From an uncultured Gemmatimonadota bacterium (GTDB lineage: Bacteria; JAAXHH01), in the NCBI GenBank assembly GCA_951812955.1, contig OX638340.1:1504001-1568000 (forward strand): a DNA stretch of 64,000 nucleotides, written 5' to 3'. Within the stretch, counting starts at the first letter, position 1. Every line of letters begins with the position of its first letter. Below are positions 21,459-29,406 of this stretch, piece after piece. Below the pieces are notes generated by a model. That model saw only the letters and a program-made list of their open reading frames with translations, was not told where the DNA came from and ran no database searches. The translations under genes and the position numbers were made by a program.

Positions 21459-22400
21459 GTGAACACCATGAACCTGTATTACCTTCAGTACTTCCTGGCG
21501 GTCGCACGGCGCGAGAGTTTCTCGAAAGCGGCGCGGGACATGCACGTCACGCAGCCGACGGTAAGCAACGGCGTACGGGAACTGGAAGACACGTTGGGCG
21601 TGAAGCTGTTCAACCGCGGAAGCCGGCACGTTTCGTTGACCATGGAGGGGAGAGCGCTCGTAAACTACGCCGTTCGCATCCAGGACCTCGTCGAGGAAGC
21701 GGAAAACCGCCTGGCCAGCGGAGACGTCCTGCCCGGCGAGGGATTCACCTTCGGCGCCACCGATGCCGCGGTGACCTACCTGCTCACCGACATCCTGAAG
21801 CGCTACGTGCAGCGGTACCCGGAACTGGAACTGTCCGTCCACGTTTCGCCGTCCCAGTACCTGGTGGAGGAACTGCTGGCCAACCGTTCGGAGTTCGCAC
21901 TGATCACGCTGCCCTATTCCCATCCGAGGATCGAGACCATGTCCATTTACCACGACTCCATGCCGCTCGTGGTCGGCGGCGGCCATCCTTTCGCCGGACT
22001 GACGTCGGTCTCGCTGACGGAGGTCGCGGAGCAGCCGCTGATCCTGTTCCACGAAGATTCCGTGTCGCGACGGATCGTGGACGAACGTTTCGCCGAGGTG
22101 GGCGTTTCTCCGCGCGTCGTCATGGAGATGCGAAGTCCCGAAGCCATGCGAAAGCTTGTGGAAGCCCGCGTGGGCATTTCCTTCCTGCCGTCACTGACGA
22201 TCCAGGAATCGATTGCGTCGGGCACGCTCCACGAGGTCCCCGTGGAGGGCGTCGCGTTCAGCCGCGATATCGGCGTGGCGTGGCGCCGAGGGCGGTACTT
22301 CAGTCCGGCCCTGGGCGTTCTGCTGGAAGATATCTTTGAGCGTTACGGTGAGGGGAAGGCGTGGGCGAAGCGGCAAAACTCCGACCTGGCGACGAATTGA
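21459..22400 (+). CDS. LysR family transcriptional regulator
   Basis: The N-terminal HTH is LYYLQYFLAVARRESFSKAARDMHVTQPTVSNGVRELEDTLGVKLFNR. The C-terminal substrate-binding domain is typical. The alternative start is M at 21468. Confidence 0.9.
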   Translation: MNTMNLYYLQYFLAVARRESFSKAARDMHVTQPTVSNGVRELEDTLGVKLFNRGSRHVSLTMEGRALVNYAVRIQDLVEEAENRLASGDVLPGEGFTFGATDAAVTYLLTDILKRYVQRYPELELSVHVSPSQYLVEELLANRSEFALITLPYSHPRIETMSIYHDSMPLVVGGGHPFAGLTSVSLTEVAEQPLILFHEDSVSRRIVDERFAEVGVSPRVVMEMRSPEAMRKLVEARVGISFLPSLTIQESIASGTLHEVPVEGVAFSRDIGVAWRRGRYFSPALGVLLEDIFERYGEGKAWAKRQNSDLATN

Positions 22401-22454: not shown

Positions 22455-22949
22455 TCAGTCGTAGGCGTTCAGTTCGGCGTCGATCCGGTTACGGTGGCGA
22501 GGGTCGGTCGTAGGCCCGCTCGCGGCAACCGGGGCGGCGCGATTGACTCGTCCGGAACGCCATCGGCGCAGCGTAAAGAAGATGACCCCGGCGCCGGTCA
22601 GGAACATGAGCGGCGTAAAGAGGTAGGCCATCCGGTTGAATCCGGCATTGGGCGGGGAGGAGAGGATGCGTTCCCCGTAGATCGCCTTATAATGGTCCAG
22701 GATATCCTCTTGCGTCTTCCCTTCGACGAGCATCTGACGGAGATCCTCTTTCATTTTCTCCGCCGTGCCGGAGTAGTGCTGACTGAGCGGCGCCCGCCAG
22801 CAGCAGGGCGCGATCAGCCGCTCTTCGACTGCTTCCGCGACCAGTTCCCGGCCTTCGTCCAAGACCGCGTCAACCCTTGCAATGGACGTGCCTGGCATGG
22901 CCAGGATGGCCAGTATTGGAAGTATGAGAAAGAAAGAGGCTCGTCGCAT
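22455..22949 (-). CDS. CcmH/NrfF/CycL-family cytochrome c biogenesis protein homologue with a non-canonical APCCW motif in place of LRCxxC
   Basis: The signal peptide is MRRASFFLILPILAILAMPGTSIA. The core RLIAPCCWRAPLSQHYSGTAEKMKEDLRQMLVEGKTQEDILDHYKAIYGERIL aligns with the E. coli CcmH core (LRCPKCQNNSIADSN…LRQKVYELMQEGKSKKEIVDYMVARYGNFV). A C-terminal TM is present. Confidence 0.65.
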   Translation of the reverse strand: MRRASFFLILPILAILAMPGTSIARVDAVLDEGRELVAEAVEERLIAPCCWRAPLSQHYSGTAEKMKEDLRQMLVEGKTQEDILDHYKAIYGERILSSPPNAGFNRMAYLFTPLMFLTGAGVIFFTLRRWRSGRVNRAAPVAASGPTTDPRHRNRIDAELNAYD

Positions 22950-23300
22950 GGGTCCAACCTGTAAGGTAGAGGATCTAGCTTATTGTAACAATGAATCCGG
23001 ACGTCATCAAGCAGTGCTCGTACTTTATTCAGAGGTTCCGATGCAGAAATGCGGGCCGAGCCGAAACGTGCGGCTCAAGTCCTCACTGGATTTACTAATT
23101 AAAATACAAGGTAATGGTTCAGCTGTCAATCCACCTTATCATCCGGATGATATATGTATTAGTAGGATGTTGTCCACTAATCTCGAGTTTTAAACCTGTA
23201 TGCTCAATCCGTCCGAGCAGAACCGGATAGATTGGCGCCGGAACACGCGAATTCCATTGACCTTACAGGCAACGGTCTTCCTTTTCTGTGGCGAAATTCA

Positions 23301-23369
23301 CGGGACCGCGTAGTTTATCGCGGGATTGCGCAGTTTATCGCGGGACCGCGTAGTTTACCGCGGGACCGG
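23301..23369. repeat. Intergenic 20-bp tandem direct repeat x3.4 (CGGGACCGCGTAGTTTATCG) about 45 nt upstream of the MFS-HEAT gene
   Basis: cgggaccgcgtagtttatcg (23301-23320), cgggattgcgcagtttatcg (23321-23340), cgggaccgcgtagtttaccg (23341-23360), cgggaccgg (23361-23369). Confidence 0.75.
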
Positions 23370-23412
23370 TCGAGGCCCATAGTAATAAGGACGGCCAACG
23401 GAGCTTCCCATC

Positions 23413-25686
23413 ATGCTGTCACGGGGCGAAGTCAACCGATCGCTACGATCATTTATCGTCGTGAGAGGACTGTGGGGCGCCTGGGGCCAGATGGTCGGCA
23501 CGAATACAGCCGTCTTCGCGGGTTTCGTGCTATCCCTTGGAGCGGACGCCTCGGACATCGCCTTCTACTCTGCGATCGCCTCGATCCTCGCCCCGGTACA
23601 GATCATCTCGTCCCTCTTCAGCAAGACCATCGAGAATAAAAAAAGCTGGGTCGTCTGGAACGGTGTGCTGGAAGCGCTGTTCCGGGGGCTCATGATCACC
23701 ATCCCCTTTCTCTTTGTCGAATCGCTGCACCAGCGGATGCTGCTCATCTTCCTGGTCGCCGGGCTGACTGCGGGATATATCTACACGCCATTCTACTCGA
23801 GCTGGGTCGCCGGCACCGTCCCGGAGAATATCCGTGCTCGATTCACGAGCCGGCAGACCATCGTCCAGAGTCTCGTGGGTGCGGTGGTAGGCGTAATGAC
23901 GGGCCGCTTCGTGGACTGGTTTCCCGATGATGAGAAGCTCCTGGCCTTCGTGGTGGTATTTGCCGTGGGGACCCTCTGCGGCGCCGCTGGGCCCCTGTTT
24001 CTCAAACGTACGCCCTACCCGTCCCGCGTCGACGAGTCCGAAGCCCAAAATCCACTGCGTCATCTGTTGCAGCCCTTTCGCGACCCGAACTTTCGCCGAC
24101 TGGTCATGTTCTACTCATCCTGGCAGTTCGCCCTGGGACTCTCCGGACCGCTTTTCAGCGTTTTCATGCTCGACCGCCTGGGATTCGGCTATACTGCCAT
24201 CTCCCTGCTGAGCGCCCTGGGCACGTTGGCTACCATCGCGGGATACCGTGCCTGGAGCGTGATCATCGATCGTTTCGGAAGCAAGCCGGTCCTCCAGATC
24301 CTCATCATCCCCGGTGCGCTGAACGCCTTCCTCTGGGGGCTGTGCCAGCCCGGTAACCACGCCATGGTCGCCATCGCCATGTTGCTCTCCGGGCTGATCA
24401 TGGGCGGCATCAACCTGGGCGTCACGCCCCTCCAGTACGCACTGCTCCCTAAAGAGAACCAGGACGAGCGAGTCGCCTACATGGCTTCGTGGTCCACGAC
24501 GATCAATCTGCTCTACGCCGCCGGGCCCCTCCTTGGCGGCATCCTGGTGGCATCGCTCACGAGCGTCCGCTTCACCGTGGGCGGGTTCCTGATCCAGGAC
24601 ATCAATCTCCTGTTCTTCCTGAGCGGAATCATGCGTTTCGTACCGCTGTTCCTGCTCCGCGCGGTGCGCGACGCCCGTTCCATTTCGTCCCAGCAACTCC
24701 TTTCGAACATGTTTCGCGGCAACCTGCTGAGTTACACCTTCAATTATATCGTATTCAACGTGGCCACGGCCGAGGACCGGCGGGCACGGGCGGCCTACAG
24801 ACTGGGCCGTTCAAGGAACCCGATGGCAACCGACCACCTGGTCCAGGCCCTGTCCGACGCCAGCTCCAAGGTACGCCGGCAGGCGGCGCGGGCCCTGGGG
24901 GAGACCGGATCGGAAACGGCGGTCGACACCCTGATCAGGGAGCTTGAAAGTCCCTCCTCGGACATTCGGAGCGAAGCAGCCGAGGCGCTCGGCCGGCTGA
25001 GGCATGCAAAGGCGGTGGACCCGCTGGTGGAGGCCCTGGAAGACGAAGATCCCCGTGTTCGGATCAGCGCCATTTCCGGCCTTGGGCAGATAGAGGGCGA
25101 CGACGTGCAGGAACTGTTGTTCTGGCACTTTTCGAACAACGTCGACCCACTGACCTTCCCTACGCTCGTCGAGGCCCTGAGTCACCGCGAAGATTACCGC
25201 ATCATCAAACCGACCTTCGACCGGCTCGGGTCGTTTACTTCTCCCGCGGTGCGCCTGCAACTTCTCAACAACATCTGCCATACGCTCGGGGCGGGAGACC
25301 GATTCTACAAGCTGCTGTCCATGGAGGAGAACGAGCGTTACGGCGCACTGGAAACCATGATCAAACGCACCGTCTCCCGGCTCACGGAGTCGAAGGCCGT
25401 TCCTGAAGATACGCGACGGGGCGTGGAAAGCCTGTTCGTGCTGTTCACCCAGGCCTACGAGCGCAATGACGTGGAAGCCATGATGGAACAGGCCCGCATG
25501 CTTGCGGCACTCATTCGCGACAGCCACCCCGTAGTCGAACAAAGCCCGGTTGACACCCTGTCGGTGTACCTTATCATCATGACAATGAACCACTTTATCG
25601 ACAGCGATGCCCACCACGACCTGCCCGGTGCGCAGGAGATCTTTCTGGCGGTGTGCATGCGGCGGATCGCCACGCTGGTGAACTGA
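23413..25686 (+). CDS. Fusion protein: N-terminal MFS-type transporter (about 12 TM) plus C-terminal PBS-lyase/HEAT-repeat domain
   Basis: Residues 1 to about 460 are hydrophobic with 12 predicted TM helices and MFS-like loops. Residues about 470-757 carry repeated HEAT-like units (SKVRRQAARALGETGSETAVDTLIRELESPSSDIRSEAAEALGRLRHAKAVDPLVEALEDEDPRVRISAISGLGQI). The ORF is one continuous 757-aa frame, with an RBS AACGGAG. Confidence 0.75.
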   Translation: MLSRGEVNRSLRSFIVVRGLWGAWGQMVGTNTAVFAGFVLSLGADASDIAFYSAIASILAPVQIISSLFSKTIENKKSWVVWNGVLEALFRGLMITIPFLFVESLHQRMLLIFLVAGLTAGYIYTPFYSSWVAGTVPENIRARFTSRQTIVQSLVGAVVGVMTGRFVDWFPDDEKLLAFVVVFAVGTLCGAAGPLFLKRTPYPSRVDESEAQNPLRHLLQPFRDPNFRRLVMFYSSWQFALGLSGPLFSVFMLDRLGFGYTAISLLSALGTLATIAGYRAWSVIIDRFGSKPVLQILIIPGALNAFLWGLCQPGNHAMVAIAMLLSGLIMGGINLGVTPLQYALLPKENQDERVAYMASWSTTINLLYAAGPLLGGILVASLTSVRFTVGGFLIQDINLLFFLSGIMRFVPLFLLRAVRDARSISSQQLLSNMFRGNLLSYTFNYIVFNVATAEDRRARAAYRLGRSRNPMATDHLVQALSDASSKVRRQAARALGETGSETAVDTLIRELESPSSDIRSEAAEALGRLRHAKAVDPLVEALEDEDPRVRISAISGLGQIEGDDVQELLFWHFSNNVDPLTFPTLVEALSHREDYRIIKPTFDRLGSFTSPAVRLQLLNNICHTLGAGDRFYKLLSMEENERYGALETMIKRTVSRLTESKAVPEDTRRGVESLFVLFTQAYERNDVEAMMEQARMLAALIRDSHPVVEQSPVDTLSVYLIIMTMNHFIDSDAHHDLPGAQEIFLAVCMRRIATLVN

Positions 25687-25841: not shown

Positions 25842-26978
25842 ATGAATACCCGGGATAACCATTTCCACCTGGGCATCGCAGGGGCCTGCGGACGGGGCCG
25901 GAGTTTTCGCGCAGCCTGCGACGCCCTGCCACAGGTCCGCGTCCATGCCGTGTGCGATATCGACACCGGCGCTCTGCCCGCGACGGCCGACCTGCTTGGC
26001 GCTTCGGAGCAGTACACCGATTTCGACGAAATGCTGGAGAAGTCCGACCTCGACGGCGTGATCATCGCCACGCCCATGCCCCTTCACGCACCGCAGGCCA
26101 TCGCCGCGCTCAACCGGGGGCTTCACGTATTCAGCGAGGTACCCGCGGCGGTCTCGGTCGAGGAGTGCCGGGAGATCGTGCGGGCGGCAAAGTCATCCGG
26201 CGGCGTATACATGATGGGTGAAAACTACACCTACATCCGGGAGAACGTCCTGATCAAGGAACTCGTCAAGGCTGGGCATTTCGGGACGCCATACTACGCC
26301 GAGGGAGAATACCTCCACGAACTCAAGGGATACGACGAGCACCGACTCGCGGCCCGGGGACTCCCGCCCAGGCAGGTCTGGCGGCGCCACTGGCAGTCCG
26401 GCATCGACGGCATCACCTATGGGACCCACAGCCTGGGACCCATCCTGCAGTGGTTCGACGACCGCGTGGCGCACGTCACCTGCCACGGAAGCGGCCACCA
26501 CCACGTCGACGCGGAGGGCAGACCCTACGCCCAGGATACCAGTGTCATGCTCTGCAAGATGGCGAAGGGCGGCCTGGCCAAGATCCGGATGGACCTCACC
26601 TCCGACCGTCCCCACGCGCTGACCAATTACCAGCTCCAGGGAACCGACGGTTGCTATGAATCGGCCCGCGGTCCGGGCCAGGATTTCAGGATCTGGCTCC
26701 GGTCCCGATGCATGGGCGAAAACACGTGGATGGACCTCCACGAACTGGAGGAGGAATTCCTGCCCGGGGAGATGAAGGCCGCGGCCGCGCAGGGCGCCGG
26801 ACACGGTGGGAGCGACTACCACGAACTCGTGGAGTTCATCGATGCCGCGGAAGGACGCCGCAAACCGTCCATCGGCCTGCACGAGGCCATGGACATGACC
26901 CTGCCCGGCCTCGTCAGCCAGCAGTCCATCGCCGGGAACGGCCGATCCGTGCCCGTCCCGGATTCGCGGGCGTGGTAG
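25842..26978 (+). CDS. Gfo/Idh/MocA family oxidoreductase
   Basis: The N-terminal NAD-binding region is HLGIAGACGRGRSFRAACDAL…VHAVCDID. The length is 378 aa and the C-terminal domain is typical. Confidence 0.8.
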   Translation: MNTRDNHFHLGIAGACGRGRSFRAACDALPQVRVHAVCDIDTGALPATADLLGASEQYTDFDEMLEKSDLDGVIIATPMPLHAPQAIAALNRGLHVFSEVPAAVSVEECREIVRAAKSSGGVYMMGENYTYIRENVLIKELVKAGHFGTPYYAEGEYLHELKGYDEHRLAARGLPPRQVWRRHWQSGIDGITYGTHSLGPILQWFDDRVAHVTCHGSGHHHVDAEGRPYAQDTSVMLCKMAKGGLAKIRMDLTSDRPHALTNYQLQGTDGCYESARGPGQDFRIWLRSRCMGENTWMDLHELEEEFLPGEMKAAAAQGAGHGGSDYHELVEFIDAAEGRRKPSIGLHEAMDMTLPGLVSQQSIAGNGRSVPVPDSRAW

Positions 26979-27148
26979 GATTTAGAGACCTGTATGCGGA
27001 TTCCGGATTGCCGCGAAGCACTACACGCACTGAATCGTCCGATCCATACCGATCCAAAGTTCAGATTAGCCTGTACGCGACCGACTCGCCCGGCTATACT
27101 TTGGCTACACCTTAACCAGCTAACATCCCATCTATGAGGAGCGCGCCC

Positions 27149-28237
27149 ATGGCCCGCCCCGGCAGCCCGATCGAAGACATCGACACTCCGGCCCTGGTGA
27201 TCGACCTGGACCTGATGGAAGGCAATATCGCCCGCATGGCGAAGTTCTTCGCCGACCAGGGCGCCTGGCTGCGGCCCCACACGAAGACCCACAAGACGCC
27301 GGTCCTGGCCCACAAACAGATCGAGGCCGGCGCCCGGGGAGTCACCTGCGCCAAGCTGGGCGAGGCCGAGGTCATGGCCGCGGCCGGCATTCGGGACATC
27401 CTCGTGGCCAACCAGGTCGTGGGACGGGTGAAGATCGAACGTCTGGTCGCACTGGCGCGACATTCGGATATCATTGTGGCCTCGGACCATGAAGAAAACG
27501 TCCGGGAGATTTCCGACGCGGCCGTGGCCGCAGGCACCCGGGTTAACATGATCATCGAGGTCGACGTGGGCATGGAGCGCTGCGGCGTGCCGCCCGGCGA
27601 ACCCGCGTGGAAGCTCGCCCAGGCGATCGACAGTCATCCCGGCGTCATATTCCGCGGTGTGATGGGTTACGAAGGCCACATCATCGGCAACCCGAACGAC
27701 GAGGAACGGTACGCCGGTTGCCGGGAGTCCATGACCCTGCTGACCCAGACGGCCGACTATATCCGCGAACGGGGCCTGGCCGTGGACCTGGTCAGTGGAG
27801 GAGGCACGGGGACGTACAAGGTCACCGGTACATTCCCGGGGGTGAACGAGGTACAGGCGGGATCCTACATCCTCATGGACGGAACCTACCGGAAACGCAT
27901 CCCCGAGTTCGACTGCGCATTGACCATCTACGCCTCCATTGTCAGCCGGCCCGGCGACGAGCTCGCCGTCGGCGACGCCGGCCTTAAGACCATGACAAAC
28001 GACATGGGACTGCAGACCGTCCAGGGGGTGGAAGGCGCATCCATCCTTCGCCAGTCCGAGGAACACGTCAAGATCGAACTACCCGGAGCGTCCTGCGGCT
28101 TGCGGCCGGGCGACAAGATCCACCTCATTCCGAGCCACTGCTGCACGACCATCAACCTCCACGATCGCTTCTACGGCGTGCGCAACGGAACCGTCGAGTC
28201 CGTTTGGAACATCGCGGCGCGGGGAAAACTGCAATAA
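27149..28237 (+). CDS. Alanine-racemase-fold PLP enzyme of the DSD1 / D-threonine aldolase / D-serine dehydratase-like family
   Basis: The PLP-lysine motif is LRPHTKTHKTPVLA. The family C-terminal domain with conserved Cys/His (HLIPSHCCTTINLHD) is present. The RBS GAGGAG at 27136-27141 favours the ATG at 27149. The track start at 27134 is in the same frame. Confidence 0.8.
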   Translation: MARPGSPIEDIDTPALVIDLDLMEGNIARMAKFFADQGAWLRPHTKTHKTPVLAHKQIEAGARGVTCAKLGEAEVMAAAGIRDILVANQVVGRVKIERLVALARHSDIIVASDHEENVREISDAAVAAGTRVNMIIEVDVGMERCGVPPGEPAWKLAQAIDSHPGVIFRGVMGYEGHIIGNPNDEERYAGCRESMTLLTQTADYIRERGLAVDLVSGGGTGTYKVTGTFPGVNEVQAGSYILMDGTYRKRIPEFDCALTIYASIVSRPGDELAVGDAGLKTMTNDMGLQTVQGVEGASILRQSEEHVKIELPGASCGLRPGDKIHLIPSHCCTTINLHDRFYGVRNGTVESVWNIAARGKLQ

Positions 28238-28305: not shown

Positions 28306-29406
28306 ATGGACCCCCGATATCTCGTAGCCAACGTCGATGACATACCCAGCCCGTCCATGCTGGTCTACCGCGAACGGCTCAGGGAGAACATAGATCGGAC
28401 CCTGGCGATTGCCGGTGGCCCCAAACGCCTTCGCCCCCACGTGAAGACGCACAAGATGCGGACCGTCATCGAGATGCAGCGCGAGGCCGGGATTTCCAAG
28501 TTCAAGTGCGCCACAGTATTCGAGGCGAAGATGCTGGCTGAAACGGGCGTGGAGGACGTCTTCGTCGCCTACCAGATGGTCGGGCCCAACATCGGACGGC
28601 TGGTCGATCTCACCGGCCGTTTCCCCGGGACGACATTCCGCGCCATGGTGGACGACCGCGGTGCGGCCGAAGCGCTGTCGGCTGCGGCGTCCGGTGCCGG
28701 CGTCACCATCGACGTCCTGTTGGATTTCGACGTAGGCCTGCATCGTACCGGGATCGCGCCGGGTCAGAAGGCGCTTGAACTCTACGCACTGCTGGACCGC
28801 CTGCCTGGCGTCACTCCGGGCGGGATCCACGGCTACGACGGACATAACCACCAGGTAGACATTGAGGAACGCAGGCAGGCCTGCAACGCCGCGCTGGACG
28901 CGGTGCGGTCGTTCCAGGCCCGGCTGGAATCCCGCGGACTGCCCGTGCCCCGGCGCGTCATGGGCGGTTCCATCTCCTTTCCGTGCTATGCGCCCGCCGA
29001 AGACGTGGAGCCCTCGCCCGGCACCTCCGTATTCTGGGACTGGGGGTACGGCCAGCGCTTCCCCGACCTGCCCTTCGAAGCCGCGGCCCTACTCCTCAGC
29101 CGCATCATCAGCATCCCCACCGCGACGCGGGTGACCCTCGACCTGGGCAACAAGGCCATCGCATCGGACCCCGCCGGACAACGCGGCATCGCCTGGAACC
29201 TTCCCGGAGCCAGACCCGGCCAGCACAACGAGGAACACTGGGTCATGGACTGTCCGGACACCTCGGACCTTGCGGTCGGCGACCCAATCTACGTATTCCC
29301 CACCCACGTGTGCCCCTGCGCCGCCCTGCACCGCCAGGTGTATGTGATCGACGGCGACGGCCGCTGCCGCGAACAGTGGTCGGTCGACGCACGCGACCGA
29401 GAATAG
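28306..29406 (+). CDS. Second, divergent paralogue of the DSD1 / D-threonine aldolase-like PLP enzyme family
   Basis: The PLP-lysine motif is LRPHVKTHKMRTVI. The C-terminal motif is YVFPTHVCPCAALH. An RBS AAGGAG lies upstream. The product is 366 aa. Confidence 0.8.
   Translation: MDPRYLVANVDDIPSPSMLVYRERLRENIDRTLAIAGGPKRLRPHVKTHKMRTVIEMQREAGISKFKCATVFEAKMLAETGVEDVFVAYQMVGPNIGRLVDLTGRFPGTTFRAMVDDRGAAEALSAAASGAGVTIDVLLDFDVGLHRTGIAPGQKALELYALLDRLPGVTPGGIHGYDGHNHQVDIEERRQACNAALDAVRSFQARLESRGLPVPRRVMGGSISFPCYAPAEDVEPSPGTSVFWDWGYGQRFPDLPFEAAALLLSRIISIPTATRVTLDLGNKAIASDPAGQRGIAWNLPGARPGQHNEEHWVMDCPDTSDLAVGDPIYVFPTHVCPCAALHRQVYVIDGDGRCREQWSVDARDRE

What the first reader, a model, noticed from the sequence alone, without database searches (positions are those of the whole stretch)
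23413..25686. MFS transporter fused to a C-terminal HEAT/PBS-lyase repeat domain, preceded by a 20-bp tandem repeat
A single 757-aa ORF is about 460 aa of 12-TM MFS-like permease followed by about 290 aa of HEAT-like repeats (…VRRQAARALGETG…DIRSEAAEALGRL…PRVRISAISGLGQI…). HEAT/PBS-lyase repeats are usually soluble scaffolds. A covalent fusion to a transporter suggests a cytoplasmic docking or regulatory platform on a permease. Immediately upstream, at 23301-23369, are 3.4 copies of a 20-bp direct repeat that may be an operator array.
Basis: partly seen in the sequence, partly recalled or inferred. Interest (0 to 1): 0.55.

Follow-up and report, generated by a model that had tools for sequence, protein, structure and literature searches.

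The report
MFS permease with cytoplasmic HEAT domain
This is a real single gene for a membrane transporter with a built-in cytoplasmic HEAT-repeat arm; it belongs to a widespread but unstudied bacterial family, and the 20-bp repeat in front of it is a quirk of one species, not a family feature.

Summary
ORF 23413-25686 (+) is one uninterrupted 757-aa gene. It encodes a 12-TM MFS permease (residues 1-415), a roughly 35-aa flexible linker, and a 305-aa cytoplasmic alpha-solenoid made of six PBS-type HEAT repeats plus a helical cap.

The fusion is not an assembly artefact. More than 115 90%-identity clusters and about 40 GTDB species genomes carry the same full-length architecture. These come from Latescibacterota, 'Gemmatimonadetes' MAGs, Zixibacteria, WS1 and Armatimonadota. 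Among the 150 nearest 50%-cluster relatives of the MFS half, 63 also carry HEAT.

Topology (12 K+R inside, 1 outside) puts the solenoid in the cytoplasm. Its concave-surface residues are more conserved than the transporter core, which points to a conserved binding partner. No neighbouring gene is conserved across the family, so substrate and partner remain unknown.

The 20-bp x 3.4 repeat is real. It lies in the 5' leader, downstream of a conserved promoter-like block. It is fixed in one species-level lineage and absent from 85-90% relatives, so it is not a conserved operator array.

The closest described analogue is the uncharacterised NTT-HEAT fusion class (Major et al. 2017). This protein is not an NTT. 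Overall it is a catalogued but unstudied architecture of modest interest.

The parts
23257..23299 (+). Conserved promoter-like block: TTGACC, a 17-19 nt spacer, T(A/T)TTCT, then GTGGCGAAATTC
   Evidence: Alignment of six upstream regions from 85-98% relatives shows invariant columns here while the flanks diverge. The strict sigma-70 scan did not flag it, because the second hexamer in the window is TTTTCT. Its function is inferred.
23301..23368 (+). 20-bp direct tandem repeat, 3.4 copies (unit CGGGACCGCGTAGTTTATCG, containing the palindrome CGCGG-GA-CCGCG). It lies in the probable 5' leader.
   Evidence: TRF score 108, and 0 of 100 shuffles reach 3 matches. The array is identical in L023 and L090-L092. 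Relatives at 85-90% identity keep only one degenerate copy. There is no Rfam hit, and the RNA fold z-score is -1.15.
23400..23403 (+). Shine-Dalgarno GGAG, 9 nt before the ATG
   Evidence: Seen in the sequence. CAACGGAG is conserved in five of the six relatives in A2; L004 diverges here.
23413..24657 (+). MFS permease domain, residues 1-415, 12 TM helices, N-in/C-in. A motif-A-like DRFGSKP sits in the TM8-TM9 loop, and a periplasmic beta-hairpin at 386-395.
   Evidence: Pfam MFS_1 E=1e-24 and MFS_2 E=1e-13. AF2 pLDDT is about 90 with 12 long helices. Foldseek matches YegT, NupG, MFSD2A, AmpG, SPNS2 and MelB. Loop K+R counts are 12 inside and 1 outside.
24658..24768 (+). Flexible cytoplasmic linker, residues 416-452, carrying the invariant motif G436-N437-x3-Y441
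   Evidence: AF2 pLDDT is 45-53 here. The invariant columns come from the 116-sequence alignment.
24769..25332 (+). Six PBS-lyase-type HEAT repeats, residues 453-640. Repeats 1-4 are canonical with a 31-aa period starting at 454, 485, 516 and 547; repeats 5-6 are degenerate.
25333..25683 (+). Family-specific helical cap, residues 641-757 (five long helices), with no Pfam match
   Evidence: AF2 pLDDT is about 85-95. A profile of residues 577-757 (degenerate repeats 5-6 plus the cap) finds 53 of the 150 nearest MFS representatives. The cap itself is the least conserved region: 0.55 in the narrow family and 0.26 in the deep family.
25550..25577 (+). Sigma-70-like site TTGACA-16-TATCAT inside the 3' end of the ORF. 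It is a possible own promoter for the downstream Gfo/Idh/MocA gene (25842-26978).
   Evidence: The consensus scan scores it 11 of 12. This is a consensus match only.

Best explanation
The gene encodes one polypeptide: a 12-TM MFS secondary transporter whose C-terminus continues, through a roughly 35-residue flexible linker, into a cytoplasmic alpha-solenoid of six PBS-type HEAT repeats plus a helical cap.

Shown here:
- The fusion is real and ancient.
- It defines a conserved family spread over at least five bacterial phyla.
- The solenoid faces the cytoplasm.
- Its concave (ligand-binding) face is under at least as much constraint as the transporter core.

Inferred: the solenoid is a protein- or peptide-binding module. 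It either tethers a conserved cytoplasmic partner to the permease or couples a cytoplasmic signal to transport. This is analogous to what has been proposed, but not tested, for NTT-HEAT proteins.

The substrate is unknown. The MFS half resembles the NHS, GPH and AmpG branches (glycoside, nucleoside, muropeptide and lysolipid carriers) only at fold level. The gene appears to be transcribed on its own from a conserved promoter-like block.

The 20-bp x 3.4 array is a fixed, species-specific tandem duplication of one ancestral leader segment. It is not a conserved regulatory feature of the family.
For: One ORF with both domains above the Pfam cut-offs.

Family size and spread:
- All 120 listed best hits, each a 90%-identity cluster, carry MFS_1 plus HEAT, and nearly all cover the full query length at 44-94% identity.
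- Full-length copies occur in about 40 GTDB species genomes, from Latescibacterota, 'Gemmatimonadetes' MAGs, Zixibacteria, WS1 and Armatimonadota.
- Of the 150 nearest 50%-cluster representatives of the MFS half, 53 have HEAT plus tail and 10 have HEAT only.

Topology: 12 K+R on inside loops against 1 outside.

Conservation: the HEAT concave-surface positions score 0.81 against 0.68 for the MFS core in the narrow family, and 0.47 against 0.43 in the deep family.

Repeat: it is absent from syntenic 85-90% relatives and identical in five assemblies of the window's own lineage.
Against: No binding partner has been identified. No neighbouring gene is conserved family-wide, so the docking role rests on the general behaviour of HEAT repeats and on surface conservation alone.

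Surface conservation fits equally well with an intramolecular contact. The inter-domain geometry could not be inspected: no coordinates or PAE were available, and the full-length pTM is only 0.69.

No transport substrate can be assigned. The nearest solved MFS structures share only 12-18% identity. The operons of MFS-only relatives are too distant, at 27-30% identity, to transfer a function.

The promoter and transcription start site are inferred from conservation, not measured.
Confidence: 0.6

Rival explanations
1. Intramolecular gate. The HEAT solenoid binds the transporter's own cytoplasmic elements, either the invariant basic TM4-TM5 loop (PENIRARFTSRQT) or the invariant GNLLSYxYN motif in the disordered linker. 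It acts as an autoinhibitory latch that is released by a cytoplasmic signal.
For: Invariant residues lie in a linker that AF2 predicts as disordered (G436, N437, Y441). The repeat surfaces carry a conserved acidic patch (E497, E521, E524). The cytoplasmic loop carries conserved arginines (R141, R143). No external partner gene is conserved nearby.
Against: No contact prediction or PAE was available. The charge complementarity is my own reading of the alignment. The low-confidence linker and a pTM of 0.69 do not indicate a fixed docked pose.
Confidence: 0.25
2. Cargo chaperone. Like the E/F-type bilin lyases, which share this repeat type, the solenoid binds the transported small molecule itself (for example a tetrapyrrole or lipid-like cargo). 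It would hand the cargo to the permease or receive it from the permease.
For: CpcE and CpcF are among the best sequence and fold matches. The nearest solved MFS folds include lipid and amphiphile carriers (MFSD2A, SPNS2, AmpG). Some MFS-only relatives give weak PUCC hits.
Against: Scores are far below the CpcE, CpcF and NblB equivalog cut-offs (57 bits against 330). The similarity is confined to the generic HEAT_PBS repeat, which the designed alphaRep binders match even better. The window protein itself gives no PUCC hit. The host phyla share no known common pigment pathway (my own knowledge).
Confidence: 0.07
3. The 20-bp array is a working operator array. Three palindromes (CGCGG-N2-CCGCG) spaced two helical turns apart, just downstream of the promoter, bind a dimeric repressor such as the nearby LysR-type regulator at 21459-22400.
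For: The array is statistically real. It sits between the conserved promoter-like block and the RBS. Each unit contains a 5+5 palindrome visible in the sequence. It is fixed without variation in five assemblies. The LysR gene is syntenic within this clade.
Against: Syntenic 85-90% relatives with the same LysR neighbour have only one degenerate unit and no palindrome. The unit occurs nowhere else in the window or in the metagenome collection. No binding data exist.
Confidence: 0.15
4. Artefact. The two halves are really separate genes joined by a mis-assembly or a missed stop.
For: Two public loci (L087, L088) have the MFS and HEAT parts called as separate genes.
Against: Those two loci are frameshifted copies: the family motif continues in another frame. 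All other copies are uninterrupted, including those on complete 3.7-6.9 Mb chromosomes from different projects.
Confidence: 0.01

Closest known systems
NTT-HEAT fusion proteins (TLC/AAA-family nucleotide transporters with C-terminal HEAT repeats; Major, Embley & Williams 2017, PMC5381601)
   Same: Both are polytopic secondary-transporter domains fused at the C-terminus to PF13646, PF02985 and PF03130-type HEAT repeats. Both are broadly conserved in free-living bacteria. Both are functionally uncharacterised, with the HEAT part presumed to mediate protein-protein interaction.
   Different: The transporter half here is PF07690/PF13347 (MFS_1/MFS_2), with no PF03219 (TLC) hit even at E<=1. There is no associated cyclic-nucleotide-binding domain. 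The phyletic range also differs: Latescibacterota, Zixibacteria and Armatimonadota here, against Cyanobacteria, Chlamydiae and Proteobacteria there. I could not test whether the two HEAT modules are homologous beyond the shared repeat type.
PBS-lyase HEAT-like repeat proteins: CpcE/CpcF bilin lyases, NblB, E. coli YibA, MTH187, and the consensus-designed alphaRep binders
   Different: Those proteins are soluble and stand alone. This protein scores 57 bits against the 330-bit CpcE cut-off and 36 against 300 for NblB. It also adds a 115-aa helical cap and is tethered to a permease.
NHS, GPH and AmpG-type MFS permeases (YegT, NupG, MelB, MFSD2A, AmpG)
   Same: These are the best structural matches to the MFS half (Foldseek E of 5e-8 to 3e-7, target TM-score about 0.7). 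Pfam MFS_2 (GPH) and MFS_1_like also hit.
   Different: Identity is only 12-18%. No sequence-level PDB hit was found for the MFS half. None of these has a C-terminal solenoid. No substrate can be transferred.
MFS transporters with other cytoplasmic C-terminal domains (for example E. coli YajR with its YAM domain, or LplT-Aas fusions; cited from my own knowledge, not tested here)
   Same: The principle is the same: a soluble domain appended to the cytoplasmic C-terminus of a 12-TM MFS. A sister protein in this subfamily carries a GT4 glycosyltransferase in that position (P0217).
   Different: The appended folds differ (ferredoxin-like domain, acyltransferase or synthetase), and the MFS subfamilies are unrelated.

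Membership tests
Major Facilitator Superfamily (Pfam clan; PF07690 MFS_1) | Profile match above the curated cut-off | tested here: met
   MFS_1 scores 84-87 bits against a cut-off of 33.4. MFS_2 scores 41-48 bits against a cut-off of 27.
Major Facilitator Superfamily | Twelve TM helices in two six-helix bundles, N- and C-termini cytoplasmic, with a motif-A-like loop | tested here: met
   The AF2 model shows 12 long helices and a central loop at 200-224. Foldseek target TM-scores to solved MFS structures are about 0.7. K+R counts are 12 inside and 1 outside, and DRFGSKP sits in the TM8-9 loop.
Major Facilitator Superfamily | Demonstrated solute transport | not testable with these tools
   This needs uptake or efflux assays.
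NTT / TLC nucleotide transporters (PF03219), including NTT-HEAT | A TLC-family transporter domain | tested here: not met
   No PF03219 hit at E<=1 for the full protein or for the N-terminal half.
HEAT / PBS-lyase HEAT-like repeat (PF13646, PF03130, PF02985) | Tandem repeats of about 31 residues matching the profiles, and an alpha-solenoid fold | tested here: met
E/F-type phycobilin lyases (CpcE, CpcF, CpeY) and NblB | An equivalog-level match (NCBIfam cut-off) | tested here: not met
   CpcE scores 57 bits against 330, NblB 36 against 300, and CpcF 29 against 220.
Operator array (repeated regulator-binding sites) | Conservation of the repeated sites in orthologous promoters | tested here: not met
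   The array is present only in the relatives that are about 98% identical across this region. Syntenic 85-90% relatives lack it.
Operator array (repeated regulator-binding sites) | Binding by a regulator | not testable with these tools
   This needs EMSA, footprinting or ChIP.
Known cis-regulatory RNA (riboswitch or leader) | An Rfam covariance-model match or a significantly stable fold | tested here: not met
   No Rfam match at E<=1. The MFE z-score is -1.15.

The most novel reading that the evidence does not exclude
The MFS-HEAT family, and by analogy the NTT-HEAT proteins, may be a general bacterial class of 'scaffolded' or signal-gated secondary transporters. In this reading a conserved alpha-solenoid either recruits a specific cytoplasmic enzyme to form a transport metabolon or acts as a ligand-released latch on the permease. 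The HEAT binding surface being more conserved than the transporter core, together with an invariant short motif in the disordered linker, would then be the signature of that mechanism.
Probability: 0.3. Interest if true: 0.55.

Novelty: new variant of a known kind. Interest (0 to 1): 0.3.

Why it matters
Few bacterial secondary transporters are known to carry built-in protein-interaction scaffolds. Here the scaffold is as conserved as the pore, across several mostly uncultured phyla, and it parallels the equally unexplained NTT-HEAT proteins. Working out what the solenoid binds would assign a function to several hundred database entries now labelled only 'MFS transporter'. It could also reveal a way of coupling transport to cytoplasmic metabolism or signalling. 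For genome annotation, the practical point is that the fusion is genuine and the upstream repeat should not be propagated as a regulatory feature.

Tried and rejected
1. Assembly artefact or split gene. The two public 'split' loci (L087, L088) are frameshifted copies, so I rejected this.

2. Conserved operon partner. I clustered the neighbours of 40 loci.
   - A divergent AP_endonuc_2 gene and a convergent GT2 gene recur only within the roughly 50%-identity clade.
   - The CcmH, LysR, Gfo/Idh/MocA and D-Ser-dehydratase-like neighbours recur only in the window's clade.
   - Nothing recurs in Armatimonadota or WS1, so context gives no functional inference.

3. Riboswitch or leader RNA in the repeat. 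There is no Rfam hit and no significant fold.

4. Copy-number-variable VNTR or dispersed element. All five assemblies carry an identical 3.4-copy array, and the unit occurs nowhere else.

6. Whether the HEAT-plus-cap module also occurs on TLC/NTT or other carriers. The two word-indexed searches returned only short fragments or generic HEAT proteins, and the AFDB50 fold library was unavailable. This stays inconclusive.

7. Cyanobacterial and Vicinamibacterales loci with partial matches. They turned out to be soluble HEAT proteins or a BlaR1/M56-HEAT protein, not NTT-HEAT.

8. Substrate transfer from MFS-only relatives in GNAT/ATP-grasp/decarboxylase operons. At 27-30% identity they are too distant.

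9. Literature. Three searches found no paper on an MFS_1-HEAT fusion.
Full report
**Observation.** The window holds one uninterrupted ORF at 23413..25686 on the + strand, 757 aa with an ATG start. A GGAG sits 9 nt upstream of the start. Pfam places MFS_1 at residues 35-349 (84-87 bits, cut-off 33.4) and MFS_2 at 76-382. It places HEAT_2, HEAT_PBS and HEAT at about 470-570 (87-90 bits, cut-off 27.7), and it gives no hit for residues 570-757. NCBIfam gives only sub-threshold hits to the HEAT-repeat lyases CpcE, NblB and YibA (57 bits against a cut-off of 330). Tandem Repeats Finder confirms a 20-bp unit in 3.4 copies at 23301-23368, with 85% matches and a score of 108. None of 100 shuffles of the window gives three matches to the unit.

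**Is the fusion real?** Yes.
- A search of 5.8 billion proteins listed the 120 best hits, each a 90%-identity cluster. Nearly all cover the full query length at 44-94% identity and are 750-823 aa long, and every one is pre-annotated with both MFS_1 and HEAT domains. The named ones are 'MFS transporter' entries from Latescibacteria, Gemmatimonadota, Zixibacteria and Planctomycetota MAGs.
- A scan of one genome per GTDB species found about 40 species with a full-length copy. One copy, in 'Gemmatimonadetes bacterium APA_bin_41', is 98% identical. Relatives at 85-87% identity are labelled Latescibacterota. Full-length relatives at 30-34% identity occur in WS1 and Armatimonadota (Zipacnadia, Armatimonadia, Fimbriimonadaceae).
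- Several copies sit on complete 3.7-6.9 Mb chromosomes from different projects.
- Two public loci call the MFS and HEAT parts as separate genes. In L088 the family motif RGNVLSYAY continues in a different frame from both called genes, and in L087 the gene is broken into three frames. These are frameshifted copies, either pseudogenes or sequencing errors, not natural two-gene versions.

**How far does the architecture extend?** A phmmer search with the MFS half alone (residues 1-430), run against 1.84 billion 50%-cluster representatives, gave 3579 hits at E<=1e-3 and 113 at E<=1e-30. I built separate profiles for the HEAT block and for residues 577-757 and applied them to the best 150:
- 53 carry HEAT plus the same tail.
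- 10 carry HEAT only.
- 84 carry neither HEAT nor a long extension (under 150 aa beyond the MFS domain).
- 3 have a different long extension.

Pfam scans of samples confirm this. Nine of ten long relatives at only 25-30% identity in the MFS half have HEAT repeats. One, P0217, has a GT4/GT1 glycosyltransferase in that position instead. The ten sampled 400-600 aa relatives are plain MFS. The fusion is therefore old, and the HEAT-plus-tail unit has been inherited as a block.

**Anatomy.** The AlphaFold2 model built on a 116-sequence alignment has a mean pLDDT of 85.8 and a pTM of 0.69. It has twelve long membrane helices, a central cytoplasmic loop at 200-224, a short beta-hairpin at 386-395, a low-confidence linker (pLDDT 45-53 at 420-450) and a confident all-helical C-terminal domain. 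Modelled alone, residues 441-757 give pLDDT 90.7 and pTM 0.85.

Using the model's helix boundaries, loops on the predicted cytoplasmic side hold 12 K+R and those on the other side hold 1. Both termini, and therefore the solenoid, are cytoplasmic. No segment of the C-domain is hydrophobic enough to span the membrane.

The canonical repeats start at 454, 485, 516 and 547 with a 31-residue period. Read against that register, 578-590 and 610-635 (SPAVRLQLLNNICHTLGAGDRFYKLL) are two further degenerate repeats. The conserved 'tail motif' S610, R614, Q616, G626, F631, Y632 is therefore mostly the structural HEAT signature. Residues 641-757 form five longer helices that cap the solenoid.

**Constraint.** Mean column conservation by region, in the 116-sequence family and in a 58-sequence deep set (median 28% identity to the window protein), both:

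| Region | Narrow family | Deep set |
|---|---|---|
| MFS core | 0.68 | 0.43 |
| Linker | 0.66 | 0.38 |
| HEAT repeats 1-4 | 0.80 | 0.54 |
| Repeats 5-6 | 0.76 | 0.48 |
| Cap | 0.55 | 0.26 |

In alphaRep libraries, six positions per repeat are deliberately randomised because they form the concave binding face. This comes from my own knowledge of the alphaRep design and is visible in the variable positions of the PDB alphaRep sequences. Those same positions average 0.81 in the narrow family and 0.47 in the deep set here. They are at least as conserved as the transporter itself. S516, D517 and E521 are invariant in the narrow family, and E497 and E524 nearly so. A conserved binding surface implies a conserved ligand.

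That ligand could be an external protein. It could also be part of the same chain. Candidates are the invariant G436-N437-x3-Y441 motif that sits in the disordered linker, and the basic TM4-TM5 loop PENIRARFTSRQT, in which R141 is 90% or more conserved even in the deep set. I could not separate these possibilities because neither coordinates nor PAE were available to me.

**Genomic context.** In the window's own clade (85-98% identity) the neighbours are syntenic. Upstream lie an inositol-1-phosphate synthase, a LysR regulator and a CcmH-like gene. Downstream lie a Gfo/Idh/MocA+GH109_C oxidoreductase, one or two D-serine-dehydratase-like genes and an enoyl-CoA hydratase. In the roughly 50%-identity clade the gene has a divergent AP_endonuc_2 gene about 100 bp upstream and a convergent GT2 gene downstream, in 13 loci each. 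After these come genes for a HIT protein, ribosomal protein L3 and a GT9 enzyme. Clustering all neighbours across 40 loci found no family that recurs beyond one clade, and none at all in the Armatimonadota and WS1 loci. The gene behaves as a stand-alone unit. A strong sigma-70-like site (TTGACA-16-TATCAT, 25550-25577) inside its 3' end may serve the downstream gene. MFS-only relatives in Ignavibacteriaceae and Zixibacteria close a GNAT, ATP-grasp and PLP-decarboxylase operon, which looks like export of a small biosynthetic product. At 27-30% identity that cannot be transferred to this family.

**The 20-bp repeat.** I aligned the upstream regions of six relatives.
- All six share the block TTGACC, a 17-19 nt spacer, T(A/T)TTCT, then GTGGCGAAATTC (window 23257-23299). 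All but L004 also share the CAACGGAG ribosome-binding site.
- The array lies between these two features, so it most likely sits in the first 80 nt or so of the transcript.
- Only the 98% relative has the array. The 85-90% relatives keep a single degenerate copy.
- A scan of the metagenome collection for the exact unit found three contigs. All are the same locus with the same 3.4 copies and the same internal substitutions. The unit occurs nowhere else in the window.
- There is no Rfam match, and the leader does not fold better than shuffles (z = -1.15).

The simplest reading is a tandem duplication of one ancestral leader segment, now fixed in one species-level lineage. Each unit does contain a CGCGG-GA-CCGCG palindrome and the spacing is two helical turns. 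A species-specific repressor site therefore cannot be excluded. It is not a feature of the family, and nothing here shows binding.

**Comparison with what is known.** The closest described case is the NTT-HEAT fusion class, in which TLC-family nucleotide transporters carry the same Pfam HEAT families at the C-terminus. Those are monophyletic, widespread in bacteria, and explicitly uncharacterised (Major et al. 2017, PMC5381601). The present protein works on the same plan but is not a member, since no TLC domain is detectable. It is a member of the MFS and of the PBS-type HEAT repeat class by every test I could run. It is not an E/F bilin lyase or an NblB by the curated cut-offs. Three full-text searches found no paper on an MFS_1-HEAT fusion. 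Public annotation calls these proteins simply 'MFS transporter'.

**Verdict.** The architecture is common and already catalogued, and a parallel one is in the literature. The upstream repeat is a lineage-specific curiosity. What remains interesting is that a whole family of permeases keeps a protein-binding solenoid under tighter constraint than the pore, while the substrate and the partner are both unknown. I rate it as a new variant of a known kind, with interest of about 0.3.

Noticed in passing
window 25550-25577 (+): A near-consensus sigma-70-like site (TTGACA-16-TATCAT, 11 of 12) lies inside the last 140 nt of the MFS-HEAT ORF. It is 265 nt upstream of the Gfo/Idh/MocA+GH109_C gene at 25842-26978, which may therefore have its own promoter.
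   Followed up: no
window 23257-23299 (+): The promoter-like block TTGACC, N17-19, T(A/T)TTCT, GTGGCGAAATTC is conserved across 85-98% relatives while the surrounding intergenic DNA diverges. The invariant GTGGCGAAATTC just after the -10-like hexamer could be the real regulatory element.
   Followed up: partly
window 27134-28237 and 28306-29406 (+): Two adjacent paralogous genes are both Ala_racemase_N + D-ser_dehydrat (the D-serine / D-threo-3-hydroxyaspartate dehydratase-like type). The pair is conserved in L001 and L005 but is single in L004.
   Followed up: no
P0217 (859 aa; representative found): A member of the same MFS subfamily (30% identity) carries a C-terminal GT4/GT1 glycosyltransferase instead of HEAT repeats. 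This second kind of fusion at the same position hints at glycoconjugate handling in part of the subfamily.
   Followed up: no
L046 2210-7299 and L050 2340-7392: MFS-only relatives in Ignavibacteriaceae and Zixibacteria are the last gene of a conserved operon: GNAT (Acetyltransf_6), ATP-grasp, PLP-dependent Orn/DAP/Arg decarboxylase, then the MFS. This looks like a small-molecule biosynthesis and export cluster.
   Followed up: partly
L060 4300-7173: A Vicinamibacterales genome encodes a BlaR1-type Peptidase_M56 membrane protein fused to a long HEAT/PBS repeat array. It is another membrane protein-HEAT fusion.
   Followed up: no
L088 3669-5984 and L087 3942-5927: Family copies in otherwise perfectly syntenic contexts are broken by frameshifts near the linker (L088) or in several places (L087). 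They are either pseudogenes or assembly errors.
   Followed up: yes
window 24718-24735 (residues 436-441): The invariant motif G-N-L-L-S-Y lies in the only low-confidence stretch of the AF2 model (pLDDT 45-53). It may be a short linear motif that becomes ordered on binding.
   Followed up: no
window 22455-22949 (-): A stand-alone CcmH-like gene (PF03918 in the orthologues) sits divergently upstream of the MFS-HEAT gene, with no other cytochrome c maturation genes adjacent. This arrangement is conserved in the window's clade only.
   Followed up: no
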